64,000 nucleotides of DNA from Trypanosoma brucei (Eukaryota). The stretch covers positions 1,184,001 through 1,248,000 of the forward strand of contig CP000071.1 in the NCBI GenBank assembly GCA_000002445.1, read 5' to 3'. The notes under the pieces were generated by a model that was given only the letters and a program-made list of their open reading frames with translations, ran no database searches and was not told where the DNA came from. A program made the position numbers and the translations under genes. Positions 15,747 through 61,504 of this stretch are shown here, in pieces; positions within the stretch are counted from its first letter, which is position 1, and every line of letters starts with the position of its first letter.

Positions 15747-16445
15747 TTAGTCTTCCTCATCCTCTTTCCCTTCGTAACACACCTCACTTTCCTCCACTTC
15801 CTCATCGCTACTTTCCGATTCAACACCCGAAAAACATTGCCGCCGCAGATTCAAAACCCCACGCGAGTAGTACGTTGCCATTCTTTCCACAGGAAGACTT
15901 AGGAAGTCCTGCACGCATGACGCTCTGTGCTCTTGCATGAATGCTATCACGGCCCACAGTTCAGCCATAGCCCAGATGTCACTACGGAGGGGACTCTTCT
16001 TTTCTGCTTCACCATCCTTTGCAGCGATCGCCACGTGGTCAGTCTTGCTATTATTGTTAGCATGTGACATAGCCCCAGCAAGACACATGTGCTCACCAAC
16101 GAACTTCACTAGCCTATAGTTATGATTGGGATGCACCGTAACGTTTCCAGTGTTGGGACATGGTAGCAATAGGATAGGGGTCTCCTCATCCGTTATGTCC
16201 TGCAGCAACACACCCGCTTGTCCAAGTAGTTGCCGAAGGTTCAGGGACGGTGCGGCAGAGGGCACCTGAGTTACCCTCCCATTAATGCGGATAACAAAGT
16301 GCGCCTCCTCATCGGTTCCACACTCCTTAGATCGGCCGCGCTTGCGAGTTCCCTTAACCACTTCTTGACCCGCCAATCGTGTCATGACCTCTACCAATAC
16401 CTTTAGTGATTGATCAACGGGGGAGAAAATCTTAGATAAGCACAT
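15747..16445 (-). CDS. Hypothetical protein of about 232 aa with an acidic Ser/Glu/Asp C-terminal tail. Unit copy 1.
   Basis: The track ORF starts at TTG (16460). The first ATG gives MCLSKIFSPVDQ... The tail reads ESESSDEEVEESEVCYEGKEDEED. It is conserved in all three units. Confidence 0.55.
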   Translation of the reverse strand: MCLSKIFSPVDQSLKVLVEVMTRLAGQEVVKGTRKRGRSKECGTDEEAHFVIRINGRVTQVPSAAPSLNLRQLLGQAGVLLQDITDEETPILLLPCPNTGNVTVHPNHNYRLVKFVGEHMCLAGAMSHANNNSKTDHVAIAAKDGEAEKKSPLRSDIWAMAELWAVIAFMQEHRASCVQDFLSLPVERMATYYSRGVLNLRRQCFSGVESESSDEEVEESEVCYEGKEDEED

Positions 16446-18361: not shown

Positions 18362-19332
18362 TTTACGTATCGCTATGAGGTCCTTCCGTCCACATGACGA
18401 ATACAGCTACAAATGATCTTGCACTACAGCGGGTGGTATTAACGATAAGGTTACATCAGCTTCAGCACACTTTGCTTCTGCTTTTAACCCTAGACTTATC
18501 TAATCCCTGCCGCCCACGCAGTTGCATAATTAAATAGAAGATAATAAGGGAGAATGAAAATGAATGAAGATGGGAAAATACGGTGAAGGAACACAAAGGG
18601 CACTATAGCAGTATAGGAGCACGCCACAAGAAGATGTGCTCGGACAAGCGGATGGATCACCAACAAGATAGGGGACCTTCGGAGGGTTTCACAGTTGGAG
18701 TCAGCATGGACTCACCTCAAAGGAAGACAAATAAGGGAAAAGAATAGAAAAAATAAAATTACGTTCCCCTGTGGCACAACGACGGCAAGCGTCGGGGTAC
18801 CTGAAGCTGTACAGGCGTGCTCGCTGTAGCGACCGCACAGTCTTGTATTGTGCACTGCTTCACTGTAACATGATAGTTCATACCCCAATATATGTTGCCT
18901 ACAACCTTGTCCCCTACACACTCAGATGACACCGCACCAGTGGCATGCGGAACCGTAGTGGTAGGAGGCGGCAACCCAGGAACCTCCAGCAGCTGAAAAT
19001 ATAATTTTGATGGAGAGATCTCTAGATAGAGCCGGCGTCTATGTATAAACATGCCGGCTGCACTGAGGCCGGCGTAGGGTAACCCCAGAGCCGATGCCAA
19101 CAACAACAAAAAAAAGAAATAACGACCGATCAATAACGATAAGAATGATAATGGTGGAAATACATGTACATGTACGGGAGCACATGAATAACTAGTGAAT
19201 AGCGAAAATAGCGATCAGTTGAGTTACTGAGACCTTTCCACCCTGCTCTCACTCAGTTACTGCAAGCACGTGTTGCATGGGAGTGGAAGGACAGTAAGAC
19301 ATTGCGCATGTTTGTGTGATAGTCTAGGAAAT

Positions 19333-21585
19333 TCACTGCTCGACCCTTTCTTTGTTGCCGTAGGCAGATGCGTAATCTTGCTCATCCTCATCCAGTGTAC
19401 TCACGAATTTCGGACGAGCGGGTGCGACTACGGCGGCAAGGCGTCTGCGTTTCGATGTGAACACGACAGCTAACACGATGAGGACGGCTACGATAAGTGC
19501 ACACACTACCGCGATTATGATTAGGCACACGCGACCGCACTTTGGCGCCTTCTCTGTGGTGGGTCTGACGGTATCGTTGTTCAGGTGGTCGTTCAAGTCT
19601 TGCCAGTCAATCTCACCGACGCATTCCGACACATCGAACGTATAGTTTCCAGGAATGAATACTTCGTACAGACTCATCTCAACGTAGGGTGGCTGGTAAA
19701 AAAGCGATACCGTGCGGTTCGTTATCGTGGACTGGCATACTCCAGTTACATTGCTATCAAGTGCCGTGGCAATGGTGGTTCGGCTATGGTCACCAACCTC
19801 TTCCCTACGTGCCATGCTTCTCCCGGTGCTACGTTCTTCACATTTCTTTATTTGATTCATCACCTCGTCGTGTATGTACCAGCGTACTTCCTGTTCCTCA
19901 TCCGGAGTCAGTGATGAGAAGTTGAACGGGGGATTGGAGAAGGTTACATCGACGTGAGTGTCCGAGCTCCGCAAGTATTTGATGAATGAGTGGGCAGTCT
20001 CAGTGAGGTTCGCATCTGACAGCAAGTCGTGGGTCACGGTGTTGTTGAACGAGGCTGGCATCAGTAGCTTCACTGTTGTGATATTTTCAGCGTCACTGCT
20101 CTCAGCCTTAAGGGGCATGTCCGCGTAGATGAGCGTGAAATTGAGTACCTCACCCGCCTCCTTTGCGAGCTTCCGACGGAGAGCATCAAGACTCAGGCGA
20201 TTGCAATATGGGACCATTGTGCTGTCCATGTACACCTGTTCGTCAGTAAGGTTGTAGTACTCATCCGCAGCCTCCTTTGTGTGTTCATAGTTACTCTCGT
20301 GCAAGGCCTGTTCGGTTTTCTCGTCATCAAAGTCCGGCTGTTGCACACCGGCGGTGAAATTCGTTAGCCATGTTGTGGAGTCCACATGTACGGAAGAAGA
20401 GGCAACAATACTTTCGGTGGTGCCGAGCGCAGTGTTGATGTCCTCAGTGAGGTTCCCCACAATCCACTCCATGATGTCTTTATCAGGGTATCCAACTGGT
20501 AACGGGCGCCCGGGGAAGAGACCCTGCACGTACACTGGTGGAAGTGTCACAGAACGCAGGACACTTTTCTTTTCCGATGTAACATACATTTCGTACTCCG
20601 TCACCACGAGCAATCGGGTTATCTCACAAAGAAGCGTGTCATCTCCCTCAGTATTGGGAAGACACGAGTTCGTGCTTCCTCCGGCGAATCGTTTCGTCGT
20701 AAGTTTATTACCGTCGGTCGAAACGCGGTGTAACTCATTTTGTGTTGCCGCGAGTAGATCACCAGACCGTGTGCTGGTAATGTCCACATATTCACCATCC
20801 ACCTCTGCGATCTTGTGGCCCTGCAGGTCGAACCAGCAGATGGTGCCCTGCTTCGCGGGGCCGCGAGCAACAACAAAGATGCCCTGCTGCGTGGCGGCAA
20901 TGCCGATGGGACCATAGATACTGCAGTTTGCACTCAGAGCCACGTGGCTGTGACATGCGATTGGGTCACCGTCGCTTCCCACTTCACACGTCCATACAGT
21001 ATTTGTGTTTTGCTCTGTCAGATACAGGTGGTTCCCGTACAAAGCTACGCCTGTCAGCGAGCCATTGCGGACTACGTCATGAGAGAAGACACCGCTGTCC
21101 TTGAAATACTTCACCTCACCCATACTCTCAACAAAGTAAACAAATGTGGAGCCACCAACTGTCCACTGCACGCAGGCGCGCGGTTTGTCAACTTTGACAC
21201 TACGCGACCCGCTTTTCTGATCCTCGTCTGTCTCCCATGCCGTGATTGTAGTGGTCTCACGGTTCTTGCGCGAGAAGGCACGGAAGCGGTCAACTGTCCC
21301 CAAAAGGATCTCGTCACTATTCCTGCCTCTGCACATAGCGTGGGGTGACGATAATTCCGACATGCCAGGGAACCCGTCCTTATCACCAATATGACCGTAC
21401 TTGCCAGCGACGGTGGTCACATGGCGCTTCAGTTCAATGGGAGCGGCTCCACTTCTCACTACAATCGTTGCGACGGTGGCCACGAGCAAAAGCATCTGGG
21501 ATACGTAACCTAAGTGCACGGTTCCTACTACTTCCCTCACATTCATTGTTTCCACCTCACAGTTGGTTTGTTTCCACAACGGCAT
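19333..21585 (-). CDS. FLA1BP: FLA1-binding-protein-like NHL-repeat type-I membrane glycoprotein. It is about 750 aa from the first ATG; the track ORF is 752 aa from a TTG. Unit copy 1.
   Basis: An N-terminal hydrophobic signal or anchor is present (LLLVATVATIVV). NHL-like repeats are present (TVAGKYGHIGDKDGFPGMSELSSPHAM...). There are more than 15 NxS/T sequons and a C-terminal TM CLIIIAVVCALIVAVLIVLAVVF followed by a basic cytoplasmic tail. Length and position, adjacent to FLA2 and EndoG, match FLA1BP as I recall it. Confidence 0.7.
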   Translation of the reverse strand: MPLWKQTNCEVETMNVREVVGTVHLGYVSQMLLLVATVATIVVRSGAAPIELKRHVTTVAGKYGHIGDKDGFPGMSELSSPHAMCRGRNSDEILLGTVDRFRAFSRKNRETTTITAWETDEDQKSGSRSVKVDKPRACVQWTVGGSTFVYFVESMGEVKYFKDSGVFSHDVVRNGSLTGVALYGNHLYLTEQNTNTVWTCEVGSDGDPIACHSHVALSANCSIYGPIGIAATQQGIFVVARGPAKQGTICWFDLQGHKIAEVDGEYVDITSTRSGDLLAATQNELHRVSTDGNKLTTKRFAGGSTNSCLPNTEGDDTLLCEITRLLVVTEYEMYVTSEKKSVLRSVTLPPVYVQGLFPGRPLPVGYPDKDIMEWIVGNLTEDINTALGTTESIVASSSVHVDSTTWLTNFTAGVQQPDFDDEKTEQALHESNYEHTKEAADEYYNLTDEQVYMDSTMVPYCNRLSLDALRRKLAKEAGEVLNFTLIYADMPLKAESSDAENITTVKLLMPASFNNTVTHDLLSDANLTETAHSFIKYLRSSDTHVDVTFSNPPFNFSSLTPDEEQEVRWYIHDEVMNQIKKCEERSTGRSMARREEVGDHSRTTIATALDSNVTGVCQSTITNRTVSLFYQPPYVEMSLYEVFIPGNYTFDVSECVGEIDWQDLNDHLNNDTVRPTTEKAPKCGRVCLIIIAVVCALIVAVLIVLAVVFTSKRRRLAAVVAPARPKFVSTLDEDEQDYASAYGNKERVEQ

Positions 21586-22257: not shown

Positions 22258-24030
22258 CTACTCCAGCGCCGGCAGTCGCACAAAAGTAGATCTTGCATTC
22301 GGTGGACTTGCTATGAGCAACCACAGCAGCATGATGGCAAGAAGGCCCAAGAGCACTGAGGAGGCGATTCCTGCAGCACGCAGGTCCTCATGCACCTGGA
22401 ACTGAAGCTCGTCTACACACAGAGATTCATTGAAGGAAATGTACTGACAATCATCCACACACTTCACCATGCAGAATGGTGATAGGTGATCCCACTCCTC
22501 TTGTCGTACCAATTCATCAAGAAACTTCCGTGTCCAGTTCCATGGAGACGAGAACAACCGCTTCTGTAGTTCTTGCTTGCTCCTACCAGGAGGCCCTTGG
22601 TAGTTGGTAATAAGGATGTTCTTGTCGAAGTTCTCTAGAGCTGTCAAGTTTGTCCACGTCGAAACATTTGTACCACCAGGCACGTCATTGTAACCTGGGG
22701 GGAGGAAAACAGCAAAAAAGTCATCTGTGCCGAAAGCGATCTCAACATCCCTCATAATCCACGAATACAGAGCATGCATAAGTTTTACATCATCAATTGG
22801 GAACGAAGAAGCGCGAAAGGCGGCAACAGCTGTGGGTCTCGGAGGTGAAGGGGGATCCGGATTGGGAGTAATCGGCGGCGGCGGCGGCGGCGGTGGTGGT
22901 GGTGGCGGTGGCGGTGGCGGCTGCACTGATGGTGATGGTGACGGCGATGCTGATGGGCTGGGAGAAGGTGATGGCGGCACCGAAGGCGTGGGAGGGGGCG
23001 TTGGTGGAGGCGTTGGCGTCGGTGTATAGCCTACATCACGAATGGCATACACGGCCGTTTCTGTTGTAGCATAATACTCTTTGTCATTCACCCTCAACAA
23101 TGAGACAATCCGATCATAGTCCCATTTCAACATTGACTGCGCACACCATTGGGATGCTGGAGATGGGCGTTCCACCTCTAGTGACATGATGTACCCCTCT
23201 CCATTGGGCTCACCGTAATAATATAGTTTATCCTCTGCTTGAGTCAGCATCAGAGCACTTTTGTAGTGCAGACACGTCACATCACCTATATCCTTACTTT
23301 TTCCAATATCAGACTCCCCAGTTTTGCTCAAATTAACCGCTGCAATCCATGAGGTGTTTTTTACGACATACATCATGTTCTTTTCTTTGCTTATTTGCAT
23401 CACACCAGGTTGGAAGCCAGCGACTAGTGTAGTTACCACTGTGTTATTAGCATCCAGTGGCACATAAAGGATCTGCGAATTGCCTGTGTCGGAAATGAAT
23501 AGATTCTGAGTCCCGTTCAATGTGAATGGGAGAATATCCTTCGGTTTGTTAAGGTCTTGTGGTCCATATCTGGTTACATTGCCCTCAGCATCTATTCGCC
23601 TAATACAGTTGTTATCCCTGTCTGCCACGTAAATATCATCGTTGACGCTTACAACTGAGGTGGGATTGTTGAATAGTGCATCTCCCTTGGGGCCGTCTTT
23701 ATTACCACGTTGCGTCAGACTGCCTGCAATTGTATATATGCCAGTTTTGTTTACGAGTCGCACGGTGGATCCACCACCTTCGATATCACATAAAAGTAAA
23801 GGAAAACGCTTCTTTTGGAAGAAACCACCAGACGCCTTGAAAAGTTTTCCCTTTGCACTTTCGCCATCCGCCTGCCCAACAGTACAAGTAGTACAACTGT
23901 TGAAGAGGTTCACAATCACCTTGGTGCCCACGGTTTGGTCTCCTATAACGGGACTCACAAAACCCAGCAGCAGCAACAACGCTGCCACGAGTGCGGCCAA
24001 TGCTTCCCGTGATTCAGTCCTGCCACCCAT
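22258..24030 (-). CDS. FLA2: Flagellum adhesion glycoprotein FLA2-like. 590 aa. It is the FLA1 paralogue with a 44-aa Pro-rich insertion between the propeller and the membrane-proximal domain. Unit copy 2.
   Basis: The ATG was verified. It shares the signal peptide and NHL repeats with the 546-aa protein. The extra stalk reads TPTPTPPPTPPPTPSVPPSPSPSPSASPSPSPSVQPPPPPPPPPPPPPPPPITPNPDPPSPP. The C-terminal TM is LLGLLAIMLLWLLIA. Confidence 0.75.
   Translation of the reverse strand: MGGRTESREALAALVAALLLLLGFVSPVIGDQTVGTKVIVNLFNSCTTCTVGQADGESAKGKLFKASGGFFQKKRFPLLLCDIEGGGSTVRLVNKTGIYTIAGSLTQRGNKDGPKGDALFNNPTSVVSVNDDIYVADRDNNCIRRIDAEGNVTRYGPQDLNKPKDILPFTLNGTQNLFISDTGNSQILYVPLDANNTVVTTLVAGFQPGVMQISKEKNMMYVVKNTSWIAAVNLSKTGESDIGKSKDIGDVTCLHYKSALMLTQAEDKLYYYGEPNGEGYIMSLEVERPSPASQWCAQSMLKWDYDRIVSLLRVNDKEYYATTETAVYAIRDVGYTPTPTPPPTPPPTPSVPPSPSPSPSASPSPSPSVQPPPPPPPPPPPPPPPPITPNPDPPSPPRPTAVAAFRASSFPIDDVKLMHALYSWIMRDVEIAFGTDDFFAVFLPPGYNDVPGGTNVSTWTNLTALENFDKNILITNYQGPPGRSKQELQKRLFSSPWNWTRKFLDELVRQEEWDHLSPFCMVKCVDDCQYISFNESLCVDELQFQVHEDLRAAGIASSVLLGLLAIMLLWLLIASPPNARSTFVRLPALE
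22874..22918. repeat. GGN trinucleotide repeat, (GGC/GGT)15, encoding the poly-Pro run of FLA2 on the minus strand.
   Basis: The sequence reads ggcggcggcggcggcggtggtggtggtggcggtggcggtggcggc. An identical copy lies at 32492-32536. It is absent from the 546-aa paralogue. Confidence 0.85.
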
Positions 24031-25364: not shown

Positions 25365-26063
25365 TTAGTCTTCCTCATCCTCTTTCCCTTCGTAACACAC
25401 CTCACTTTCCTCCACTTCCTCATCGCTACTTTCCGATTCAACACCCGAAAAACATTGCCGCCGCAGATTCAAAACCCCACGCGAGTAGTACGTTGCCATT
25501 CTTTCCACAGGAAGACTTAGGAAGTCCTGCACGCATGACGCTCTGTGCTCTTGCATGAATGCTATCACGGCCCACAGTTCAGCCATAGCCCAGATGTCAC
25601 TACGGAGGGGACTCTTCTTTTCTGCTTCACCATCCTTTGCAGCGATCGCCACGTGGTCAGTCTTGCTATTATTGTTAGCATGTGACATAGCCCCAGCAAG
25701 ACACATGTGCTCACCAACGAACTTCACTAGCCTATAGTTATGATTGGGATGCACCGTAACGTTTCCAGTGTTGGGACATGGTAGCAATAGGATAGGGGTC
25801 TCCTCATCCGTTATGTCCTGCAGCAACACACCCGCTTGTCCAAGTAGTTGCCGAAGGTTCAGGGACGGTGCGGCAGAGGGCACCTGAGTTACCCTCCCAT
25901 TAATGCGGATAACAAAGTGCGCCTCCTCATCGGTTCCACACTCCTTAGATCGGCCGCGCTTGCGAGTTCCCTTAACCACTTCTTGACCCGCCAATCGTGT
26001 CATGACCTCTACCAATACCTTTAGTGATTGATCAACGGGGGAGAAAATCTTAGATAAGCACAT
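25365..26063 (-). CDS. Hypothetical acidic-tailed protein, about 232 aa, unit copy 2.
   Basis: The protein is identical to copy 1. The ATG at 26063-26061 was verified, and the track start at 26078 is a TTG. Confidence 0.55.
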   Translation of the reverse strand: MCLSKIFSPVDQSLKVLVEVMTRLAGQEVVKGTRKRGRSKECGTDEEAHFVIRINGRVTQVPSAAPSLNLRQLLGQAGVLLQDITDEETPILLLPCPNTGNVTVHPNHNYRLVKFVGEHMCLAGAMSHANNNSKTDHVAIAAKDGEAEKKSPLRSDIWAMAELWAVIAFMQEHRASCVQDFLSLPVERMATYYSRGVLNLRRQCFSGVESESSDEEVEESEVCYEGKEDEED

Positions 26064-31875: not shown

Positions 31876-33648
31876 CTACTCCAGCGCCGGCAGTCGCACA
31901 AAAGTAGATCTTGCATTCGGTGGACTTGCTATGAGCAACCACAGCAGCATGATGGCAAGAAGGCCCAAGAGCACTGAGGAGGCGATTCCTGCAGCACGCA
32001 GGTCCTCATGCACCTGGAACTGAAGCTCGTCTACACACAGAGATTCATTGAAGGAAATGTACTGACAATCATCCACACACTTCACCATGCAGAATGGTGA
32101 TAGGTGATCCCACTCCTCTTGTCGTACCAATTCATCAAGAAACTTCCGTGTCCAGTTCCATGGAGACGAGAACAACCGCTTCTGTAGTTCTTGCTTGCTC
32201 CTACCAGGAGGCCCTTGGTAGTTGGTAATAAGGATGTTCTTGTCGAAGTTCTCTAGAGCTGTCAAGTTTGTCCACGTCGAAACATTTGTACCACCAGGCA
32301 CGTCATTGTAACCTGGGGGGAGGAAAACAGCAAAAAAGTCATCTGTGCCGAAAGCGATCTCAACATCCCTCATAATCCACGAATACAGAGCATGCATAAG
32401 TTTTACATCATCAATTGGGAACGAAGAAGCGCGAAAGGCGGCAACAGCTGTGGGTCTCGGAGGTGAAGGGGGATCCGGATTGGGAGTAATCGGCGGCGGC
32501 GGCGGCGGCGGTGGTGGTGGTGGCGGTGGCGGTGGCGGCTGCACTGATGGTGATGGTGACGGCGATGCTGATGGGCTGGGAGAAGGTGATGGCGGCACCG
32601 AAGGCGTGGGAGGGGGCGTTGGTGGAGGCGTTGGCGTCGGTGTATAGCCTACATCACGAATGGCATACACGGCCGTTTCTGTTGTAGCATAATACTCTTT
32701 GTCATTCACCCTCAACAATGAGACAATCCGATCATAGTCCCATTTCAACATTGACTGCGCACACCATTGGGATGCTGGAGATGGGCGTTCCACCTCTAGT
32801 GACATGATGTACCCCTCTCCATTGGGCTCACCGTAATAATATAGTTTATCCTCTGCTTGAGTCAGCATCAGAGCACTTTTGTAGTGCAGACACGTCACAT
32901 CACCTATATCCTTACTTTTTCCAATATCAGACTCCCCAGTTTTGCTCAAATTAACCGCTGCAATCCATGAGGTGTTTTTTACGACATACATCATGTTCTT
33001 TTCTTTGCTTATTTGCATCACACCAGGTTGGAAGCCAGCGACTAGTGTAGTTACCACTGTGTTATTAGCATCCAGTGGCACATAAAGGATCTGCGAATTG
33101 CCTGTGTCGGAAATGAATAGATTCTGAGTCCCGTTCAATGTGAATGGGAGAATATCCTTCGGTTTGTTAAGGTCTTGTGGTCCATATCTGGTTACATTGC
33201 CCTCAGCATCTATTCGCCTAATACAGTTGTTATCCCTGTCTGCCACGTAAATATCATCGTTGACGCTTACAACTGAGGTGGGATTGTTGAATAGTGCATC
33301 TCCCTTGGGGCCGTCTTTATTACCACGTTGCGTCAGACTGCCTGCAATTGTATATATGCCAGTTTTGTTTACGAGTCGCACGGTGGATCCACCACCTCCA
33401 ACATCACATAAAAGTAAAGGAAAGCTTTTGTTCTTAAAGAACCCACCCACCGCCTTGAATAAGCGACCAGTACCGTTTATGCCATCCGCCTGCCCACTAC
33501 TACAGTTGATACAACTGTTGAAGAGGTTCACAATCACCTTGGTGCCCACGGTTTGGTCTCCTATAACGGGACTCACAAAACCCAGCAGCAGCAACAACGC
33601 TGCCACGAGTGCGGCCAATGCTTCCCGTGATTCAGTCCTGCCACCCAT
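31876..33648 (-). CDS. FLA2: FLA2-like 590-aa glycoprotein, unit copy 3. It is mosaic: residues about 47-95 are of FLA1 type.
   Basis: The body of the protein, including the Pro-rich insert, is identical to 22258..24030. The segment NSCINCSSGQADGINGTGRLFKAVGGFFKNKSFPLLLCDVGGGGSTVRLV is identical to the 546-aa paralogue and differs from copy 2 (NSCTTCTVGQADGESAKGKLFKASGGFFQKKRFPLLLCDIEGGGSTVRLV). Confidence 0.75.
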   Translation of the reverse strand: MGGRTESREALAALVAALLLLLGFVSPVIGDQTVGTKVIVNLFNSCINCSSGQADGINGTGRLFKAVGGFFKNKSFPLLLCDVGGGGSTVRLVNKTGIYTIAGSLTQRGNKDGPKGDALFNNPTSVVSVNDDIYVADRDNNCIRRIDAEGNVTRYGPQDLNKPKDILPFTLNGTQNLFISDTGNSQILYVPLDANNTVVTTLVAGFQPGVMQISKEKNMMYVVKNTSWIAAVNLSKTGESDIGKSKDIGDVTCLHYKSALMLTQAEDKLYYYGEPNGEGYIMSLEVERPSPASQWCAQSMLKWDYDRIVSLLRVNDKEYYATTETAVYAIRDVGYTPTPTPPPTPPPTPSVPPSPSPSPSASPSPSPSVQPPPPPPPPPPPPPPPPITPNPDPPSPPRPTAVAAFRASSFPIDDVKLMHALYSWIMRDVEIAFGTDDFFAVFLPPGYNDVPGGTNVSTWTNLTALENFDKNILITNYQGPPGRSKQELQKRLFSSPWNWTRKFLDELVRQEEWDHLSPFCMVKCVDDCQYISFNESLCVDELQFQVHEDLRAAGIASSVLLGLLAIMLLWLLIASPPNARSTFVRLPALE

Positions 33649-34016: not shown

Positions 34017-34745
34017 CTAAGGCAACGCAGACCCGCCACCCGCCGGTCCCTTACCAATGTGGAGGAAATTGCAGTACTTCCCACGCCTGCAGCCCTCCCG
34101 AGTGAGGAAGAAAGTACATACCCTGCCATATGTTGCATTTCCCACGTGGCGCTCATTTCGACGGATCTGTGAGAGGCGGTAATCCTCAGAAGAGGATGCT
34201 GCACTGGTTGGGAGCAGTGGGGAACCTGCAGGGGATGGCAGTGGTGTAGCCATGTTCTGTTGATGAGCAGAGTTTCGACCACCCGCCACAACCCCTATTC
34301 CCTGTGACGGAGGGGCATGTGGTAGTGATGAGGATGCGGTACCCCCCGCACATCCGTAAGGCGGTGTGGTGCCAGTAGCGCTGTTGTGTGGCAGGGGGCA
34401 CTCCCTCATACGTCCTTCGGCATTAGCGTCCCGCGGACGACCTGAGGCTACTTGGAGTTCTATAGAGAAGGGGTCGGGGCAGTTAACGCCACAGTGTCCG
34501 TTTATGGCTGAATAGAATTCCATAAGTGCCTGATGCGCTACGTGTGTCGGTGGGCGCAGCGAGAGGACGTTAGGTGTAGCAACGGACAACACTTTCTCCG
34601 ATGATAGCGGTTGGTACGGCGAGTTCTGAATCTTGCGCACGAGGCACACTGCCGATGGGGCTGCATGCTCCACAATGTAGTTCACCATCGCTCTCGTTGT
34701 GAGTTGCTGGGTAGTTGACGTTGCTTCCGCAGACGAGATGGTCAT
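34017..34745 (-). CDS. CCCH zinc-finger protein, unit copy 3. Identical.
   Basis: The protein is identical to copies 1 and 2. Confidence 0.65.
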   Translation of the reverse strand: MTISSAEATSTTQQLTTRAMVNYIVEHAAPSAVCLVRKIQNSPYQPLSSEKVLSVATPNVLSLRPPTHVAHQALMEFYSAINGHCGVNCPDPFSIELQVASGRPRDANAEGRMRECPLPHNSATGTTPPYGCAGGTASSSLPHAPPSQGIGVVAGGRNSAHQQNMATPLPSPAGSPLLPTSAASSSEDYRLSQIRRNERHVGNATYGRVCTFFLTREGCRRGKYCNFLHIGKGPAGGGSALP

Positions 34746-34979: not shown

Positions 34980-35675
34980 TTAGTCTTCCTCATCCTCTTT
35001 CCCTTCGTAACACACCTCACTTTCCTCCACTTCCTCATCGCTACTTTCCAATTCAACACCCTTTATGCAGTGCCTCATCATTGCTGCAGTTGCTTTTCCT
35101 TTGTAAATTTCGACTTCCTCTGGTTTTAGCATAAGGAAATCTCGAGCATACGATATTTTGTTGCTTTGTAGGAATACCATTAAGGAACCCAAAGTACTGT
35201 CGGCCAGTTTTTTGCTTTGAAAGACACGTTTCTTGTGCAGTTTGTTACCCTCAGCAGTAAATGTTATGGCGTCTATCTCATGGTCGTTAGCAGGGAAAAA
35301 ATCTCCGGCAGGGCACACGTGCTCACCAACGAACTTCACTAGCCTATAGTTATGATTGGGATGCACCGTAACGTTTCCAGTGTTGGGACATGGTAGCAAT
35401 AGGATAGGGGTCTCCTCATCCGTTATGTCCTGCAGCAACACACCCGCTTGTCCAAGTAGTTGCCGAAGGTTCAGGGACGGTGCGGCAGAGGGCACCTGAG
35501 TTACCCTCCCATTAATGCGGATAACAAAGTGCGCCTCCTCATCGGTTCCACACTCCTTAGATCGGCCGCGCTTGCGAGTTCCCTTAACCACTTCTTGACC
35601 CGCCAATCGTGTCATGACCTCTACCAATACCTTTAGTGATTGATCAACGGGGGAGAAAATCTTAGATAAGCACAT
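34980..35675 (-). CDS. Divergent, mosaic copy of the acidic-tailed small protein, at the right boundary of the array.
   Basis: The N-terminal 130 aa and the acidic tail are identical to copies 1 and 2. An internal segment of about 260 bp (35050-35310) is replaced (CPAGDFFPANDHEIDAITFTAEGNKLHKKRVF...). The ATG at 35675-35673 was verified, and the track start is a TTG. Confidence 0.5.
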   Translation of the reverse strand: MCLSKIFSPVDQSLKVLVEVMTRLAGQEVVKGTRKRGRSKECGTDEEAHFVIRINGRVTQVPSAAPSLNLRQLLGQAGVLLQDITDEETPILLLPCPNTGNVTVHPNHNYRLVKFVGEHVCPAGDFFPANDHEIDAITFTAEGNKLHKKRVFQSKKLADSTLGSLMVFLQSNKISYARDFLMLKPEEVEIYKGKATAAMMRHCIKGVELESSDEEVEESEVCYEGKEDEED

Positions 35676-35867
35676 ATGGATGGCGCGAAGCCGGTGTTGC
35701 AAGAGCTAGGCCATTGATAGGGATACACTTTCCCATCTTTATTGGGTTGACAAGACTCTATGCGGGTGATTTGCTTTGTTTGCTGGTATCTTACGTTAAC
35801 ATGCTGTAGATTGGCCTGCTAGCAGGCACAAAATGTGAGTCTTCCCTTTTGCATTTACCCTACTGCG

Positions 35868-37115
35868 CTAAACGTGCCGGTCGTCTAAAAGCGTCGACCG
35901 TCGTGTTGAATGTGTTGCCAAAAATATTTCTCCACCGTCGGATGCCCTCCAAGCGTAAGTTCGGCGTGATGCCTCTTCGTAATTGCTGTCTAGTTCCACA
36001 GTTTGCCGGTGGCTATGTACATGCCAATGTGCTGACTGTTCAAGTGCTCCGCTTGTCCTCGAAAAGTCCTCCGTCTCTGTCCTGTGCGGGTGGTGTGAAT
36101 TGCGCGCGTTTGTTGAATACCGATATCTCTGCGAGGAACGGAACCCATCTGTTGCGTCCCTCGCGTCTAGCCACACTGTACTTCTTCCCTCTGGCTCCTC
36201 GACATCTTTCTGACCGTAATCTAAGGGATTGTATTGGCCCTCGTTGTTGCTGTTATCATATTCCTCATCATGTTCGTCTGCAAAACCACCATAGTTCAAT
36301 ACTTCCATTGACATGCCTGAGCTTATTCGTTGGTGGGCGTTGTTACTGCTGGTGCTTGAGGTTGGTGGTCTGTACCTCACTTGCTGAGGCGACCAAGATG
36401 GCCGTACTCCCTCTTCCGCGACAACTGTGGGCTTCTCGAGCATGTAATCCTCCACTCCCTCGTGTGGCCAGCTAGTGCTTGCTCTACTCAGCATAACAGG
36501 CGTGATACGCAAGTCCGTGTATCCACTTGTACGGGGTAGTGTGTCGGACGCCGTTGCTGGGAGCAGTATTGAGGCAGAAGAAAGAGAGGCTTCAGCTTCT
36601 CGGTGTGCGCGAGTGTGCGGTGATGGGCGGGGGCGGGCACCCGCTGCCTCATGTGCATGTCTTGGTATTGCTCGGTGCTGGCGCTGCGCATGCCTCGGGT
36701 GATAATATTGTGAGTGCTGATGTTGTGATTGTGTGGGACGGCTACTGTGTGCATGCTCCAGTGAGGCGGGTGTTGGTCTCTTCGGATGCGAGTATATCAT
36801 GCGTGGTTGCAGTATGGGAGCATCGTAATGGTAACGCAGTAGGGCGTTTTTGCTAGCCCTGTGGTACGCCATAAGTAAATTCGGGTAATCCAGCGGTGAG
36901 CAGGCACGTGCTGTGAAGGGAGTGGTGATGAGGTGAGAAATTGCGGAAGTGGGGACAGAACCGTGGTTTGGATGTTGCTGTTGGGTATGTTGTGGCCCCG
37001 CTTCGTTGTTTTCAGTGCGGACACCTGTCGCCCCACCCCATGCCTGCTCTACGAAGGATCGAAAGAGTTCTTCTGTAATCATTACTACCTTTGGTACCAT
37101 ACGCACGGGGCACAT
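35868..37115 (-). CDS. Hypothetical low-complexity protein of 415 aa, rich in His, Gln, Ser and Pro.
   Basis: The ATG was verified. The long ORF lies immediately outside the array. It contains HQHSQYYHPRHAQRQHRAIPRHAHE-type tracts and has no recognisable domain. Confidence 0.4.
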   Translation of the reverse strand: MCPVRMVPKVVMITEELFRSFVEQAWGGATGVRTENNEAGPQHTQQQHPNHGSVPTSAISHLITTPFTARACSPLDYPNLLMAYHRASKNALLRYHYDAPILQPRMIYSHPKRPTPASLEHAHSSRPTQSQHQHSQYYHPRHAQRQHRAIPRHAHEAAGARPRPSPHTRAHREAEASLSSASILLPATASDTLPRTSGYTDLRITPVMLSRASTSWPHEGVEDYMLEKPTVVAEEGVRPSWSPQQVRYRPPTSSTSSNNAHQRISSGMSMEVLNYGGFADEHDEEYDNSNNEGQYNPLDYGQKDVEEPEGRSTVWLDARDATDGFRSSQRYRYSTNARNSHHPHRTETEDFSRTSGALEQSAHWHVHSHRQTVELDSNYEEASRRTYAWRASDGGEIFLATHSTRRSTLLDDRHV

Positions 37116-47380: not shown

Positions 47381-48058
47381 TCAAACAACTGACAAATCCT
47401 TCCGTTTTCTCTTTCCCAGAGGTGCGTTTGTATTCTCACGACGGTAAAATTGCTGAAGCAGTACCACCGCCTCCTCCGCCCTATAACCACCGCAGCTTTC
47501 ATATCCAATTAGTGCAGCATCCTCACCACTACAACCCTTGTAAGAGTTGTGTACGGAAAGGACGGTACCATTCCCCCCAAAACGGGGGTTAGTGCAACCG
47601 AAGTAGACCTTCCGCACACGGTTGTATAAAAGCATTGCAGCACACATAATACAGGGCTCCACCACTACATACAGAACATAATCCGCAAGGTCCTGTGAAA
47701 CTGCTCCGCAGTTGCCTCCTCCTCCTATATTTTCACTCGTCCCTGCTGTCGCTTGTCGCAGGAGTTCCTCCACTGCAACAAACTCTGCGTGGGCCAACGC
47801 ATGTCCCTTCCTGTTGGTAGCGTTACGTCCTCGTGCCACAATTAACTTTTGTAAGGCCAAATCATCTCCTGCTTGTGCCTGAGCAGCGGTGGAGGAATCC
47901 GCTTTTACCAACACACATCCAACCGGTACTTCACCTTCTTCTAATGCACATGTTGCTTCCTTTAGAGCAGCCTGCATAAAGACATCACAATACACAACAC
48001 TTTCATTCGCCTCCGCTGTACCTTTTAAATTTGTGTCCTTGCCTGTATCTTGCACCAT
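47381..48058 (-). CDS. ADAT2: tRNA-specific adenosine deaminase subunit ADAT2/Tad2-like, of the cytidine/deoxycytidylate deaminase zinc-binding family. About 225 aa.
   Basis: The zinc-ligand motifs are HAEFVAVEEL (H-A-E) and PCIMCAAML (PCxxC). The C-terminus is basic (KRKRK). The track ORF begins at TTG (48139), and the first ATG is at 48058-48056. Confidence 0.7.
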   Translation of the reverse strand: MVQDTGKDTNLKGTAEANESVVYCDVFMQAALKEATCALEEGEVPVGCVLVKADSSTAAQAQAGDDLALQKLIVARGRNATNRKGHALAHAEFVAVEELLRQATAGTSENIGGGGNCGAVSQDLADYVLYVVVEPCIMCAAMLLYNRVRKVYFGCTNPRFGGNGTVLSVHNSYKGCSGEDAALIGYESCGGYRAEEAVVLLQQFYRRENTNAPLGKRKRKDLSVV

Positions 48059-49364
48059 TGGTGCTAAAGAATAAGTGAATAATAATAATAATAATAATTG
48101 AGCAACACAATCAATAAAAGAGAAAGAGGTGGGAACCAAATTAAAAAAAAAAAGTGTAGAGCGAGTTGAAAGAAGATTGGCATCTCACAATAACAACCGT
48201 GTGTGTGTGTATTTGAACTAGGAAAGACGTGTAGATGCCGAGCACAAACCATCCCTGCTAAGATCCAACAAAGTTTGACAGCGTATTGGTTGACGGGAAT
48301 ATAACTTTGTTGAGTTACAAGAGGGCGAATCGTAGATGCGTAAAAGTACGTGTGAAGGGAGGAAGTTTATAAATAAATAAATTATTGTATTTATAAAATT
48401 GTTCCGAGAGGGAGGCTACGAAGGTAGGTAAAAAAGCAAACGCATCAAGTAATATCAACTGCACCATTGTTCCACATCCAAGCTGTCCTTTTTGCTTCCT
48501 CCTTCCATGCATCTGTTCACTTCTTTCATTATTTAATTTTTTTTAGTATATAAATAAACATACGAAAAAATGTTCTGTCCTCCGTTCCGAATGTTTTCTT
48601 TTTTTTTTTTTCATGCGCTTCATCTTTCAGTTGCTCCTTGCCTCCCTTTTCCTTCCCGAGTTTTTTTTTCCTTTTCCTTTTTTTCTTTTTTAACTTTCCT
48701 TCGGTTCTGCTGCAGCGCCAATAGTACAATTACGGGAGACGTACTCTGCAGGCTTCACCGCCATCTCCGTTGAATCACCCACAGTAAAAATTGAAGGTAA
48801 TCTATGAGTAGCGGAGACGTTAACGGGGGGAAAAAAAGAAAAAAAAACAGTAGTCTACAAGGAAGAGTTTAATGCTTTGATGAAGTATACAAATATCCTC
48901 GAGGTTAGGTTTGTTGTAGAGTCTTCTTTCCATCGTCATGATTCCAAAAGTATCACTCTCTTTTCTTTTCTTTTTTTTCTCTGCTCTCCCTTGGGTTTTA
49001 CCGGGTGTGAGAAAAAAGATGGATGAATCACTCAAACAAATGAATGACGGACGAATGGCTACTGCCACACTTCCTTTTCAACCACCACAACACTTGAAGG
49101 GATAATCAAAGAAGTCAAACAAATGCACAAACACAAACACAAGCACATAAACGAAACAATAACAACACAACTATGAACGTATTCGAAATGTAATGCATCG
49201 ACATGACTGATTGCAAAAGGGATATTCGGTTCAAAGGACTGGAAATGACAAGGAGAGTCAACAAACAAATAACCGATCGAAAAATTAAGAAGAAAAGAAA
49301 AAAAAGACAGGAAAACAACGCCATATACCGAACTGTTTTGTGTCTAAAAGAGGGGAAACCATAA

Positions 49365-49387
49365 TATATATATATATATATATATAT
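49365..49387. repeat. (TA)12 microsatellite.
   Basis: The sequence reads atatatatatatatatatatatat. Further (TA)n blocks lie at 49548-49568, 56150-56176, 57999-58021 and 58960-58978. Confidence 0.85.
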
Positions 49388-50853
49388 GTTCTCGTCGTAC
49401 ACTTTACATTCTTTTTTTGTTTTCATTTTATTTCACTATACGCTGCTTTCTTTTGTCACTCCTTCACTCCTAATCCAGCTCCCACACGCAGTAGTGTTGC
49501 AGCGCCGTGCATACATAAATAAATAAATATATATATAAATAAATAAATATATATATATATATATATATTAATATATAAATGTACGTAAACTTCTGGTGCT
49601 GCTGCTTCTTTTTCTTTTTTCTTATTCTTTCGTCCAAGTGTCCTACATAACATAAACAAGGAAAAAAAAAGGAGGGTAAAAGTATGGAGTGAAATTAATA
49701 TAAATACACACAAAAATAAGGAAAGGAGGAGTCGGGGGGAAGGGAAAGGAGGAAAACAAAAAAAAAAAAAAGAAAAGAAAAAGCATTACGATATACTAAA
49801 TCTTTCTCTCTTTAGATACTTCCTACCCTTCACATCTGTACACGCAAGGACATATATGTTCGACACATACATAAATCAAAATAAATAAAAAAAAACAAAA
49901 AAAAACAGAACAGATCAGTCGCTCACAGATTGTTATCATCTGCATTATGTGCTTCGACACTAACACGTTTTCAGTGCTTCCCAAACTGGAAAAGAAACGT
50001 GTTAGTGTCTCTCTTTTTTTTTTTTAAAAAAAAATGTACAATAAAGTAAACACAATAATAACAGCAGTAACAGTGAACAGCGCAATATATGATGAGGGAA
50101 GGAAGGAGGATAAGGAGACATTATCTAAGCATTGTTATTAACACAGTAGTGGAGGCGCTGAAATAAAACTGTATAAAGCAACTATACGCATCATAAATAT
50201 TGAAACATGTTTCAGAAAGAGTTATGTGATTTTTTTGTTTTTTGTTTTTTTAAACGTCTCGTTTCTTCATTATTTCACCACACCTTTCAAATACACACAT
50301 GCACACATGCCCGTATCATCATACATCACAGGAGCGTGTACGACTGTGTCTTGACGGAGTTATTTTCTCCGCATTTCTCATCTTCTCGTTCCACCAACAA
50401 AAAAGTTTCACTCCTTCCTGTGTTATTTATTTATTTACTTATTTTCCTCCTCCATCCATCAGCATTCCACTGTGCAAGAGGAGAACAGACGTCTAATAAT
50501 GGATAAAGAAAGGGGAAGTAAATATAAACAAAACAAACAAACATTATTTGATTATGTTGACGCAAGGTAAACGAGGAGAAAACAACCGAAGGTGTGAGGA
50601 CCGGAAATAACTCTTGACATTATGTTGCTTAAAAATCTGCAACTCCACACGCTTCATATAATGCACTTATATAAATAAATATATAAATATATATTGTGTG
50701 CATACACGCATGCATGCATTTCCCTCGTCTATTTGTTCTTCTTTTTTTCTTTTCGAATTTTTAATATCATTTTTTTATTTTATTTTTTTTTAAAAATTTC
50801 TCCCACCTCCTCAGCTCCGCTTCGCAAGCGACGAAATTATGATATAATAACAT

Positions 50854-51549
50854 TTACTCCCCAGTAAAAATGTTATATGTTTGACGGTTTGCATGACCTG
50901 CACCCGGGCGAAAGGAGCGGTACGCCACCGGCTGGCACGTGGGCGCTTCGGCTTTTGGTTCCATCACACCGCGGCGAACACCAGCCGGTGCAATTTGTTT
51001 TTTTATCGGTTCAGTTGGTTGTTTTTCTGCTTCTTCCTCCTTTTCTTCTGCTCTGTAATCGACACCACCTCCCTGCTCCACACCATCATCCATTTCAATT
51101 ACGACGCCGTAATATTCATCTTGTGCTTCAACATCTTGAGAGGGATGATGTTCTGCAGTGTTATTATTAACTCCATAATGTTGGAAGGAATGATCTGCTG
51201 CCTCTTCTTCATCTAATTCAGCTCCGTCTTCATCCTCCGTGTGGCAATACTGTTGCTGTTGATGTTGATATTGATATTGATGTTGATGTTTTTGATTACA
51301 CACCCCTCGTATGGGTTCATTATTTTCCTGCTCACCTTTTCTGTGGTCGAATATTTTACCTCCAGCGTAGGCTCCTTGTACGCATGTTGTGTCCCATTTA
51401 AGATCTCCCTGTCCCATCAATTCCTTCATGGTATTTCCACCATTATGTTCACGGTAAAGTCGGCTCTGACGGACACACGGACGCTCGCCGAGTACATTTC
51501 CCTGATTTTGAGTGAGTGAAGGACCTCCCAAATGCCTATGGCCGCTCAT
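50854..51549 (-). CDS. Hypothetical 231-aa protein with a poly-Gln/His stretch and an acidic region. It is an isolated coding island in the AT-rich tract.
   Basis: The ATG was verified. There is a local rise in GC relative to the flanks. The low-complexity content (QHQYQYQHQQQQ) weakens the call. Confidence 0.3.
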   Translation of the reverse strand: MSGHRHLGGPSLTQNQGNVLGERPCVRQSRLYREHNGGNTMKELMGQGDLKWDTTCVQGAYAGGKIFDHRKGEQENNEPIRGVCNQKHQHQYQYQHQQQQYCHTEDEDGAELDEEEAADHSFQHYGVNNNTAEHHPSQDVEAQDEYYGVVIEMDDGVEQGGGVDYRAEEKEEEAEKQPTEPIKKQIAPAGVRRGVMEPKAEAPTCQPVAYRSFRPGAGHANRQTYNIFTGE

Positions 51550-55234: not shown

Positions 55235-55258
55235 GTGTGTGTGTGTGTGTGTGTGTGT
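55235..55258. repeat. (GT)12 microsatellite.
   Basis: The sequence reads gtgtgtgtgtgtgtgtgtgtgtgt. A shorter (CA)7 lies at 54125-54138. Confidence 0.85.
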
Positions 55259-61469: not shown

Positions 61470-61473
61470 TCTT

Positions 61474-61504
<31 letters not shown>

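What the first reader, a model, noticed from the sequence alone, without database searches (positions are those of the whole stretch)
34980..35702. Mosaic small acidic-tailed gene at the array's right boundary
The last copy of the roughly 232-aa gene keeps the shared N-terminal 130 aa and the ESESSDEEVEESEVCYEGKEDEED tail. The central ~80 aa (nt 35050-35310) is replaced by unrelated sequence, and repeat homology ends about 15 bp beyond its start codon at 35690. This is either a boundary paralogue, the ancestral single-copy gene into which the array inserted, or a recombination product. In each case it marks the precise right junction.
Basis: seen in the sequence. Interest (0 to 1): 0.5.

Follow-up and report, generated by a model that had tools for sequence, protein, structure and literature searches.

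The report
Half-homogenised copy of trypanosome CITFA-5 gene
The odd gene at the edge of this Trypanosoma brucei repeat is an old sister copy of a subunit of the parasite's RNA polymerase I transcription factor. Copy-correction between repeats has made its front half and tail identical to the other copies, while one protein module has stayed very different, and T. congolense and T. vivax show the same pattern.

Summary
The window is T. brucei TREU927 chromosome 8, the FLA1/FLA2/FLA1BP tandem array (period 9618 bp, minus strand). The 232-aa gene is CITFA-5, a subunit of the RNA polymerase I factor CITFA. The internal copies carry the module annotated "subunit 5a". The boundary gene (34980-35675, XP_847244.1) is the second variant, which I call 5b.

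Its first 119 codons, tail and 3' flank are identical to 5a at every nucleotide. A 269-nt island (35050-35318) is 49% identical. That island is homologous to the 5a island (z=12 against shuffles) and saturated at synonymous sites (pS 0.70). It encodes the linker plus the C-terminal helical module.

The boundary copy has this island in two other T. brucei-group assemblies. T. congolense and T. vivax also have two paralogues with near-identical N-terminal parts and diverged C-terminal modules. The T. brucei 5a module groups with one T. congolense module (95-97% bootstrap).

Best reading: these are old paralogues under concerted evolution by gene conversion, with one module kept distinct, probably by selection. 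Homology ends at 35687, 12 nt upstream of the ATG. The gene sits in the ancestral syntenic slot. The gene and the mechanism are known kinds, so interest is moderate.

The parts
34980..35675 (-). Boundary gene, 231 aa plus stop. It is the second CITFA-5 variant, called 5b here, and is identical to T. brucei TREU927 XP_847244.1/AAZ13178.1.
   Evidence: ORF list. Exact-sequence look-up. 98% identical to the DAL972 protein P0001.
35319..35687 (-). 5' homogenised tract: 12 nt of leader plus codons 1-119 (disordered N-terminus and beta-rich domain). It is 100% identical to both internal copies.
   Evidence: There are 0 synonymous and 0 non-synonymous differences in 119 codons, against pS 0.71 between T. 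brucei and T. congolense.
35050..35318 (-). Diverged island, codons 120-209: the linker plus the C-terminal helical module. It is 49% identical in DNA to 25435-25706 and about 24% identical in protein over the helical core, but homologous.
   Evidence: The AlphaFold2 model gives a beta domain at aa 46-122, a disordered stretch at 124-157 and helices at 158-205.
34980..35049 (-). Acidic tail and stop codon, the start of the 3' homogenised tract. This tract continues 100% identical to the next unit through the 3' flank and the CCCH gene to about 33850.
35687..35688 (.). Right (upstream) junction of the 9618-bp tandem array. It is the last repeated base and the first unique base.
   Evidence: The same edge appears when DAL972 and T. 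b. equiperdum are compared with the window.
25365..26063 (-). Internal copy of the gene (232 aa), CITFA-5a type, XP_847234/XP_847239.
   Evidence: Its C-terminal 73 aa are identical to T. equiperdum SCU69654.1, named 'class I transcription factor A, subunit 5a'.
15747..16445 (-). Second internal copy, CITFA-5a type, identical in coding sequence to 25365-26063.
35868..37115 (-). Unique upstream neighbour (415 aa, no Pfam hit). It is the conserved syntenic neighbour of CITFA-5 in T. vivax and T. melophagium.
34017..34745 (-). Next gene of the unit, a 242-aa CCCH zinc-finger protein. It is the conserved downstream neighbour and lies inside the 3' homogenised tract.

Best explanation
The gene is the second variant (5b) of CITFA-5, a subunit of the trypanosome RNA polymerase I basal factor CITFA. 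It is the first gene, in the direction of transcription, of the FLA1/FLA2/FLA1BP tandem array on T. brucei chromosome 8. The array arose by tandem duplication of an ancestral block: CITFA-5, CCCH gene, FLA, FLA1BP, EndoG. The upstream-most copy kept the ancestral upstream flank.

Since then the copies have been repeatedly homogenised by gene conversion or unequal crossing-over. This has made the leader, the N-terminal beta domain, the acidic tail and the 3' flank of 5b base-for-base identical to 5a. One 269-nt island, which encodes the linker and the C-terminal helical module, has escaped homogenisation and is as diverged as orthologues in different species.

Steps that are shown: the mosaic and its exact edges; the homology of the island; its synonymous saturation against zero change in the flanks; polymorphisms that co-vary between paralogues within a strain; and the same architecture in T. 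congolense and T. vivax.

Steps that are inferred: the a/b split predates the T. brucei - T. congolense split; the island persists because selection keeps two different C-terminal modules on a common N-terminal domain, that is, two alternative forms of the CITFA subunit; and the name '5b'.
For: Identity. The window protein is exactly TREU927 XP_847244.1. The internal copies are XP_847234/XP_847239. A T. equiperdum fragment identical to their C-terminal module is named CITFA subunit 5a. CITFA-5a is used as a T. brucei gene name in PMC10287944. The locus is identified by FLA1 (546 aa), FLA2 (590 aa) and FLA1BP (Tb927.8.4010/4060/4110/4050/4100; PMC4827413) and by Pfam NHL and Endonuclease_NS hits.

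Mosaic.

Homology of the island. z=12 (global) and z=17 (local) against 5000 shuffles. Orthologue hits to the 5b query run through aa 44-220.

Age. Island pS is 0.70 and dN 0.74 between 5a and 5b. Between T. brucei 5a and T. congolense the values are pS 0.73 and dN 0.72. The 119 N-terminal codons have no difference at all, although T. brucei and T. congolense differ there at pS 0.71.

Ongoing conversion. Codon 62 is Pro in both TREU927 paralogues and Ser in both DAL972 paralogues. Tail codon 221/222 is GTG in both TREU927 paralogues and GTA in both DAL972 and both T. b. equiperdum paralogues.

Persistence. 5b is at the upstream boundary in TREU927, DAL972 and T. b. equiperdum.

Parallel cases. 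T. vivax P0009 and P0026 are 97% identical in DNA from -73 to codon ~141 and 99.9% identical again from ~18 nt after the stop, and are diverged in between (pS 0.77). T. congolense P0012 and P0027 share an identical N-terminal 127 aa and have diverged C-terminal modules.

Tree of the helical core. (Tb 5a, Tco a) has 95-97% bootstrap and (Tb 5b, Tco b) has 51-57%. The within-species T. brucei and T. congolense pairs are recovered in <1% of replicates. The T. congolense a-type copy lies downstream of an EndoG gene, as 5a does.

Structure. The island edges (aa 120 and 205-209) coincide with the end of the beta domain and the end of the last helix in the AlphaFold2 model.
Against: The primary CITFA papers (Brandenburg 2007; Nguyen 2012) are not in the held library. 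I could therefore not check that 5b was found in the purified complex, or that '5b' is its official name.

The tree rests on about 50 residues. With exact residues, quartet sites split 2:2:1. Only a reduced alphabet gives 6:1:0 for grouping by type. Long-branch effects could produce the 5a-Tco_a grouping even if the duplications were independent.

pS of about 0.7 is at saturation, so it gives only a lower bound on age.

The T. vivax repeat unit (CITFA-5, CCCH gene, 503-aa gene, GPDH) differs from the T. brucei unit. Its variant is not clearly orthologous to 5b, so that case may be independent.

5b has lost the Trp and Glu of the otherwise invariant W-x-M-x-E-L motif. The T. b. equiperdum copy carries a premature TAG at codon 217. 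Both are compatible with decay.

The AlphaFold2 model is of low overall confidence (pLDDT 59, pTM 0.34).
Confidence: 0.78

Rival explanations
1. Recent duplication followed by very fast divergence of the C-terminal module only, through positive selection or local hypermutation, separately in T. brucei, T. congolense and T. vivax. On this view the identical flanks simply reflect the youth of the duplication and not gene conversion.
For: The T. vivax repeat unit differs from the T. brucei unit. The b-type modules are only weakly grouped (51-57% for Tb/Tco; T. vivax unresolved). Exact-residue quartet sites are 2:2:1. Fast b lineages could pull 5a and Tco_a together artefactually.
Against: Selection on the protein cannot saturate synonymous sites. 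The island has pS 0.70 while 119 adjacent codons, the 12-nt leader and more than 1 kb of non-coding and coding 3' sequence have zero differences. Polymorphisms that co-vary between paralogues within strains show that conversion is happening. The T. congolense a-type copy follows an EndoG gene, as T. brucei 5a does.
Confidence: 0.1
2. 5b is a decaying relic at the array edge. It is a redundant copy whose middle is drifting, and whose ends are kept looking intact only because conversion from 5a keeps overwriting them.
For: It has lost W and E of the conserved first-helix motif and keeps 7/10 invariant residues against 9/10 for 5a. There is a premature stop at codon 217 and no gene call in T. b. 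equiperdum IVM-t1. The island is AT-richer (GC3 0.43 against 0.53).
Against: The island reading frame is open, and colinear with only a 1-codon indel, after synonymous saturation. It is intact in TREU927 and DAL972, which differ by only 2 synonymous and 3 non-synonymous changes. The helices are still predicted with pLDDT of about 75. A second module variant is also kept in T. congolense and T. vivax, in two copies in T. vivax. The T. b. equiperdum stop removes only the last 15 residues of the acidic tail and could be a sequencing error.
Confidence: 0.09
3. One reading: the middle of the gene was replaced by unrelated DNA from a donor elsewhere (non-homologous or ectopic recombination), or the array inserted into a pre-existing gene.
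For: BLASTN finds no similarity in 35062-35304. DNA identity there is 49%.
Against: The protein segments are homologous (z=12-17). They are the same length to within one codon and share family-invariant residues. Exhaustive HMMER and word-index searches return only CITFA-5 orthologues. The gene is uninterrupted. The same module-level divergence exists in two other species.
Confidence: 0.02
4. Assembly artefact: a chimeric consensus made from collapsed repeat copies.
For: Arrays like this are often mis-assembled. DAL972 has a 100-N gap inside the array.
Against: The same boundary gene with the same island is present in three independent assemblies, with a few private substitutions in each.
Confidence: 0.01

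Closest known systems
CITFA-5a (class I transcription factor A subunit 5a; the two internal copies, by position Tb927.8.4030 and Tb927.8.4080)
   Same: Same gene family and same array. The first 119 codons, the acidic tail and the 3' flank are identical. The domain order is the same: beta domain, linker, helical module, acidic tail.
   Different: The linker plus helical module is only about 24% identical. 5b lacks the W-x-M-x-E-L motif of the first helix. 5b has the ancestral upstream flank (415-aa gene), whereas 5a follows the EndoG gene. The gene numbers are inferred by counting from the published FLA gene IDs and were not looked up.
Paired CITFA-5 paralogues of T. congolense (P0012 and TCIL3000_8_3830) and T. 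vivax (ERJ75_001323800 and ERJ75_001323000)
   Same: In each species the two copies share a nearly or fully identical N-terminal part and have a diverged C-terminal module. In T. vivax the identity resumes just after the stop codon.
   Different: In T. vivax the canonical module is in the upstream boundary copy and the variant is present twice downstream. Its repeat unit contains a 503-aa gene and GPDH instead of FLA, FLA1BP and EndoG. No DNA was available for the second T. congolense gene.
Concerted evolution of tandem paralogues with a conversion-resistant segment. This is a general phenomenon (my own knowledge, for example globin, opsin and RH gene pairs). It is also seen in this same array in FLA2/FLA1.
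   Same: There are sharp tracts of complete identity that include silent and non-coding sites, next to an old diverged block. Polymorphisms are shared between paralogues within a strain.
   Different: Here the resistant block corresponds to one structural module of a transcription-factor subunit, and the same partition recurs in three species.
Pol I-specific paralogous subunits of trypanosomes (RPB5z, RPB6z, RPB10z), as reviewed in PMC8311968
   Same: Duplicated components of the RNA polymerase I machinery have been retained in trypanosomes.
   Different: Those are dispersed whole-gene paralogues assigned to different polymerases. CITFA-5a and 5b are tandem copies that differ in one module only, and no division of labour between them is known.

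Membership tests
CITFA-5 (subunit 5 of class I transcription factor A) | Sequence identity to the protein that carries the name | tested here: met
   The internal copies' C-terminal 73 aa are identical to T. equiperdum SCU69654.1, 'class I transcription factor A, subunit 5a'. The boundary gene shares its first 119 aa and its tail with them.
CITFA-5 (subunit 5 of class I transcription factor A) | Membership of the trypanosomatid orthologue group: conserved beta-domain core LLLPCP-TGNV...Y-L-KF-GEH-C-AG and a helical module with D-F..L..E....Y | tested here: met
   Alignments A2 and A4 list these residues as invariant columns, and 5b has them. HMMER hits to Trypanosoma, Phytomonas and Novymonas proteins.
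CITFA-5 (subunit 5 of class I transcription factor A) | Co-purification with CITFA-1 to -7 and DYNLL1, and a requirement for Pol I promoter binding | not testable with these tools
   This is biochemical. The primary papers are not held. Whether the 5b isoform is in the complex is unknown to me.
Gene-conversion (concerted evolution) mosaic | Paralogues within a genome are more alike than orthologues between genomes in the tract, including at silent and non-coding sites | tested here: met
   There are 0 differences in 119 codons plus flanks within TREU927, against pS 0.71 versus T. congolense. The same holds in T. vivax (pS 0.047 in the N-terminal part) and in T. congolense (127 identical aa).
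Gene-conversion (concerted evolution) mosaic | Variants co-vary between paralogues within a strain and differ between strains | tested here: met
   Codon 62 (Pro/Ser) and tail codon 221/222 (GTG/GTA). Only two sites, so the support is modest.
Gene-conversion (concerted evolution) mosaic | A formal recombination test (GENECONV or RDP type) and phylogenetic incongruence between segments | tested here: inconclusive
   Incongruence is shown: the N-terminal part groups by species, and the helical core groups 5a with Tco_a at 95-97%. The core is only about 50 residues, and no formal breakpoint test was run.
Tandem segmental duplication (FLA1/FLA2/FLA1BP array, chromosome 8) | Head-to-tail units of constant period with unique flanks, carrying genes matching published FLA1, FLA2 and FLA1BP | tested here: met
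   The period is 9616-9618 bp and homology spans 10971-35687. Protein sizes, NHL domains and gene IDs agree with PMC4827413 Table 1.
Beta-grasp / ubiquitin-like fold (N-terminal domain) | Significant structural match to a solved beta-grasp domain | tested here: inconclusive
   The best Foldseek PDB hits are UBL, PB1, RA and 2Fe-2S-type domains, but none has E<0.04 and TM-scores are about 0.2. The model has pTM 0.34. There is no sequence hit in the PDB or in Pfam.

The most novel reading that the evidence does not exclude
Salivarian trypanosomes (T. brucei, T. congolense, T. vivax) have maintained, perhaps since their common ancestor, two interchangeable C-terminal modules on a shared CITFA-5 N-terminal domain. 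They would therefore build two forms of the Pol I basal factor. The two forms could be specialised for different promoter classes (rDNA versus VSG expression-site or procyclin promoters) or for different life-cycle stages. Gene conversion keeps the complex-anchoring domain identical while selection keeps the specificity module apart. No second variant was seen in T. cruzi, T. rangeli, T. conorhini, T. grayi or T. melophagium.
Probability: 0.15. Interest if true: 0.75.

Novelty: new member of a known kind. Interest (0 to 1): 0.42.

Why it matters
CITFA is the essential promoter-binding factor for the multifunctional RNA polymerase I, which transcribes rRNA, VSG expression sites and procyclin genes in T. 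brucei (PMC3950698, PMC6562600). How one polymerase and one factor serve such differently regulated promoters is an open question.

A subunit that exists in two forms differing only in one helical module gives a concrete handle on that question. Both forms are kept in three salivarian species despite constant homogenisation of the rest of the gene. Isoform-specific tagging, ChIP and knockdown are straightforward experiments.

There is also a practical point. The two isoforms can be told apart only by reads, peptides or RNAi fragments that fall inside 35050-35318. Anything designed on the N-terminal half or the tail hits all three genes.

For genome annotation, the result fixes the upstream edge of the FLA array at 35687/35688. 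It also shows that the array is a patchwork of conversion tracts, so copy-specific conclusions about the FLA2 copies need the same care.

Tried and rejected
- Pfam gave no hit for either isoform.
- PDB sequence search with a family profile found nothing at E<=1.
- Foldseek against the PDB with the AlphaFold2 model found nothing significant, only weak beta-grasp-like hits.
- The primary CITFA papers (PMC2099468, PMC3536272, PMC4702606 and the DOI) are not held.
- Full-text searches for CITFA-5b and for Tb927.8.4030/4080/4130 found only one paper, which mentions CITFA-5a. It has no held supplements.
- A donor for the island was looked for by self-BLAST of the window and by protein searches. None was found.
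- I tested whether the T. brucei EndoG-5a spacer shares sequence with the T. congolense spacer, or holds a relic of the CCCH gene. It does neither; these spacers are too diverged to compare.
- DNA for the second T. congolense paralogue could not be retrieved, and TREU927 DNA for P0002 was not on record.
- Orthology of the T. vivax variant with 5b could not be resolved.
- The 'array inserted into an ancestral gene' reading was rejected because the gene is uninterrupted and outgroup synteny shows a simple tandem duplication.
- The 'purifying selection explains N-terminal identity' reading was rejected because silent and non-coding sites are also identical.
Full report
**What is in the window.** All large ORFs between 8 and 46 kb lie on the minus strand. 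Self-BLAST shows a head-to-tail repeat with a period of 9616-9618 bp, and homology spans 10971-35687. Read in the direction of transcription, each full unit carries five genes:
- a 232-aa gene with no Pfam hit;
- a 242-aa CCCH zinc-finger gene;
- a 590-aa NHL-repeat membrane protein;
- a 752-aa membrane protein;
- a 506-aa Endonuclease_NS (EndoG-like) protein.

An exact-sequence look-up identifies the organism and locus. The boundary protein is T. brucei brucei TREU927 XP_847244.1/AAZ13178.1 on a 2,481,190-bp record, and the internal copies are XP_847234/XP_847239. The 546/590-aa and 752-aa proteins are FLA1, FLA2 and FLA1BP (Tb927.8.4010.4060.4110.4050.4100; PMC4827413 Table 1). By counting genes, the small gene would be Tb927.8.4030.4080 and, for the boundary copy.4130. 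That numbering is my inference and was not looked up.

**Checking the observation.** A three-copy alignment gives the following picture.
- The boundary copy is identical to both internal copies over 35687-35319. This is 12 nt of leader plus codons 1-119 from the first ATG at 35675.
- It diverges over 35318-35050 (269 nt against 272 nt, 49% identity).
- It is identical again from 35049 through the acidic tail, the 3' flank and the whole CCCH gene.
- Beyond 35687 nothing is repeated.

The word 'unrelated' is not. BLASTP aligns the two proteins colinearly through the middle with a single one-residue gap. A global alignment of the two 86/87-aa segments scores 92, against -34 +/- 10.5 for 5000 shuffles (z=12; the local score gives z=17; none of the shuffles reached the observed value).

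**What the gene is.** The 90% cluster of the internal copies contains a T. equiperdum fragment (SCU69654.1) named 'class I transcription factor A, subunit 5a'. Its 73 residues are exactly the C-terminal module of the internal copies. CITFA is the multi-subunit, trypanosomatid-specific basal factor of RNA polymerase I. [quoted passage not shown] 'CITFA-5a' is used as a T. brucei gene name in PMC10287944. I therefore call the boundary gene 5b. The primary papers were not available, so that name, and the presence of 5b in the purified complex, are unverified.

**Relatives.** An exhaustive HMMER search and two word-index searches, with names from cluster look-ups, recover orthologues in several groups.
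- One copy type each was found in T. melophagium, T. cruzi, T. cruzi marinkellei, T. rangeli, T. conorhini and T. grayi.
- More distant relatives were found in Phytomonas and Novymonas.
- Two paralogues each were found in T. vivax (P0009, P0026) and T. congolense (P0012, P0027 = TCIL3000_8_3830).

The helical core of 5a and that of 5b are each 33-38% identical to the stercorarian proteins but only 24% identical to each other. Each keeps different ancestral features. 5a keeps the W-A-M-x-E-L motif. 5b keeps AGDF-P and P-E-E. So neither version can simply be called the ancestral one, and no foreign donor exists.

**Age of the island and youth of the flanks.** Nei-Gojobori counts are as follows.

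| Comparison | Region | Result |
|---|---|---|
| 5a vs 5b, TREU927 | 119 N-terminal codons | 0 differences |
| 5a vs 5b, TREU927 | 86 island codons | pS 0.70, dN 0.74 |
| T. brucei 5a vs T. congolense | island | pS 0.73, dN 0.72 |
| T. brucei vs T. congolense | N-terminal part | pS 0.71 |

Purifying selection cannot explain complete identity at silent sites and in non-coding flanks. Positive selection cannot saturate silent sites in the island. The simplest account is an old duplication whose flanks are kept identical by gene conversion or unequal crossing-over.

Two polymorphisms show this directly. Codon 62 is Pro in both TREU927 paralogues and Ser in both DAL972 paralogues. Tail codon 221/222 is GTG in both TREU927 paralogues and GTA in both paralogues of DAL972 and of T. 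b. equiperdum. The rest of the array is a similar patchwork. The first ~50 codons of the FLA2 copy next to 5b equal those of FLA1 in the last unit, and not those of the middle FLA2 copy.

**Persistence and position.** 5b occupies the upstream boundary, next to the unique 415-aa gene, in TREU927, in T. b. gambiense DAL972 and in T. b. equiperdum IVM-t1. In the last it is not annotated and carries a TAG at codon 217.

In T. vivax and T. melophagium the gene order HEAT-repeat gene, 307-aa gene, 415-aa gene, CITFA-5, CCCH gene is conserved. The last T. vivax unit continues FLA, FLA1BP, EndoG, ABC1. The array is therefore a tandem duplication of an ancestral block. 5b sits in the ancestral slot, and nothing was 'inserted into' it.

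**The same mosaic in two other species.**
- T. vivax has three copies, in the order 425-aa gene, D_up, C, 503-aa gene, GPDH, D_down, C, 503-aa gene, GPDH, D_down, C, FLA, FLA1BP, EndoG, ABC1.
- D_up and D_down are 97% identical from 73 nt upstream of the ATG to codon ~141. They are 99.9% identical again from ~18 nt after the stop. In between they are diverged to saturation (pS 0.77).
- The two T. congolense proteins share an identical N-terminal 127 aa and then diverge.
- The T. congolense a-type copy lies downstream of an EndoG gene, as T. brucei 5a does.

In neighbour-joining trees of the ~50-residue helical core, 5a groups with the T. congolense a-type module (95-97% of 500 bootstraps). 5b groups with the T. 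congolense b-type module more weakly (51-57%). The within-species T. brucei and T. congolense pairs appear in <1% of replicates.

There are caveats. The region is short. Exact-residue quartet sites are 2:2:1, and a reduced alphabet gives 6:1:0. Long branches could mislead the tree. The T. vivax variant is not placed, and its repeat unit differs, so that case may be an independent duplication.

Whichever history is right, three salivarian lineages keep two C-terminal modules on one homogenised N-terminal part.

**Structure.** An AlphaFold2 model of 5b from a 10-sequence alignment has low overall confidence (pLDDT 59, pTM 0.34). Two regions are better defined. One is a beta-rich domain at aa 46-122 (pLDDT 66-85). 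The other is a helical module at aa 158-205 (pLDDT ~71-78). They are separated by a disordered linker and followed by a disordered acidic tail. The island (aa 120-209) is exactly the linker plus the helical module. There were no significant structural or sequence matches to solved structures. The best weak hits are ubiquitin-like, PB1 and other beta-grasp domains.

**Most likely mechanism.**
- Shown: tandem duplication; concerted evolution with sharply bounded tracts; an old, homologous, open-reading island.
- Inferred: the island survives because conversions that overwrite it are selected against. That is, the two helical modules do different jobs, while the shared beta domain and tail do a common one, perhaps anchoring the subunit in CITFA. 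Divergence itself would also block heteroduplex extension into the island. It would not, however, prevent replacement by a tract that starts in the identical flanks, so long persistence points to selection.

The GC3 pattern fits a role for conversion but is a small-sample observation. The singleton islands are AT-richer (T. brucei 5b 0.43; T. vivax D_up 0.43) than the two-copy islands (0.53; 0.65) and the homogenised parts (0.54; 0.77).

**Rivals.**
- Independent recent duplications with fast module divergence (about 0.10).
- A decaying relic (about 0.09). In its favour are the loss of W and E of the conserved motif and the T. b. equiperdum stop. Against it are the open, colinear frame after saturation and the retention of a second module in other species.
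- Replacement by an unrelated donor (about 0.02).
- Assembly artefact (about 0.01).

**Novelty and score.** The gene is annotated, the family is named, and partial gene conversion between tandem paralogues is a familiar process. I did not find any description of the module-restricted mosaic or of its recurrence in T. congolense and T. vivax in the searchable literature. I rate it a new member of a known kind, with moderate interest (0.42).

The most novel reading still open is that there are two functionally distinct CITFA forms, specific to salivarian trypanosomes. I give this a probability of about 0.15, and it would be of high interest if true.

Noticed in passing
window 31876-33648 (-), compared with 22258-24030 (-) and 12773-14413 (-): This is a second conversion mosaic in the same array. 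The FLA2 copy next to 5b has its first ~50 codons identical to FLA1 (NSCINCSSGQADGINGTGRLFKAVGGFFKNKSF...). The middle FLA2 copy differs there (77% DNA identity). The rest of the gene equals the middle FLA2 copy.
   Followed up: partly
window 10971-12224: This is the downstream end of the array. It holds the last 31 codons of FLA1BP, the intergenic spacer and only the first 190 nt of the EndoG gene (99.5% identical to 18171-19425). Unique sequence then leads to the ABC1-kinase gene. The last unit lacks FLA1BP and carries FLA1 (546 aa) instead of FLA2. In DAL972 the FLA1-type unit is the first unit, next to 5b, so the strains differ in unit order.
   Followed up: partly
window 48000-64000: G+C drops to 30-40%, against about 50% elsewhere. 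There are few long ORFs and no tandem repeats with score >=100. A cytidine/dCMP-deaminase-like ORF lies at 47381-48139, and a 627-aa ORF without a Pfam hit lies at 59077-60960.
   Followed up: partly
L008 426-1121 (T. b. equiperdum IVM-t1, CM010679.1): The 5b gene is present but not annotated. It has a GAG-to-TAG change at codon 217 that would remove the last 15 residues of the acidic tail. Otherwise it is identical to the DAL972 allele. This could be a sequencing error, or relaxed constraint in a parasite that no longer passes through tsetse.
   Followed up: partly
L005 1637-1693 (T. congolense IL3000 contig CAEQ01001999.1): A 19-residue relic of the CCCH zinc-finger gene (RRNERHV-NATYGRVCT, 89% identical) lies between the EndoG gene and the a-type CITFA-5 copy. 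T. brucei has nothing comparable in its EndoG-5a spacer.
   Followed up: partly
L002 10424-10726 compared with L002 18377-18646 (T. vivax): There is a strong composition contrast inside one gene. The upstream copy's island has GC3 0.43 (tail 0.14), while the shared N-terminal part has GC3 0.77 and the downstream copies' island 0.65. T. brucei 5b (0.43) against 5a (0.53) shows the same direction. This may be a footprint of GC-biased gene conversion on segments that have a partner.
   Followed up: partly
L001 15572-15671 / L004 5212-5311 (T. b. gambiense DAL972): A 100-N gap lies inside the array, in the first unit, between an EndoG start and a partial FLA1BP. Copy number and unit order in that assembly are therefore uncertain.
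   Followed up: no
L002 12481-13992 and 14657-15721 (T. vivax): The T. vivax repeat unit contains a 503-aa gene with no Pfam hit and a glycerol-3-phosphate dehydrogenase gene between the CCCH gene and the next CITFA-5 copy. Neither gene is in the T. brucei unit.
   Followed up: no
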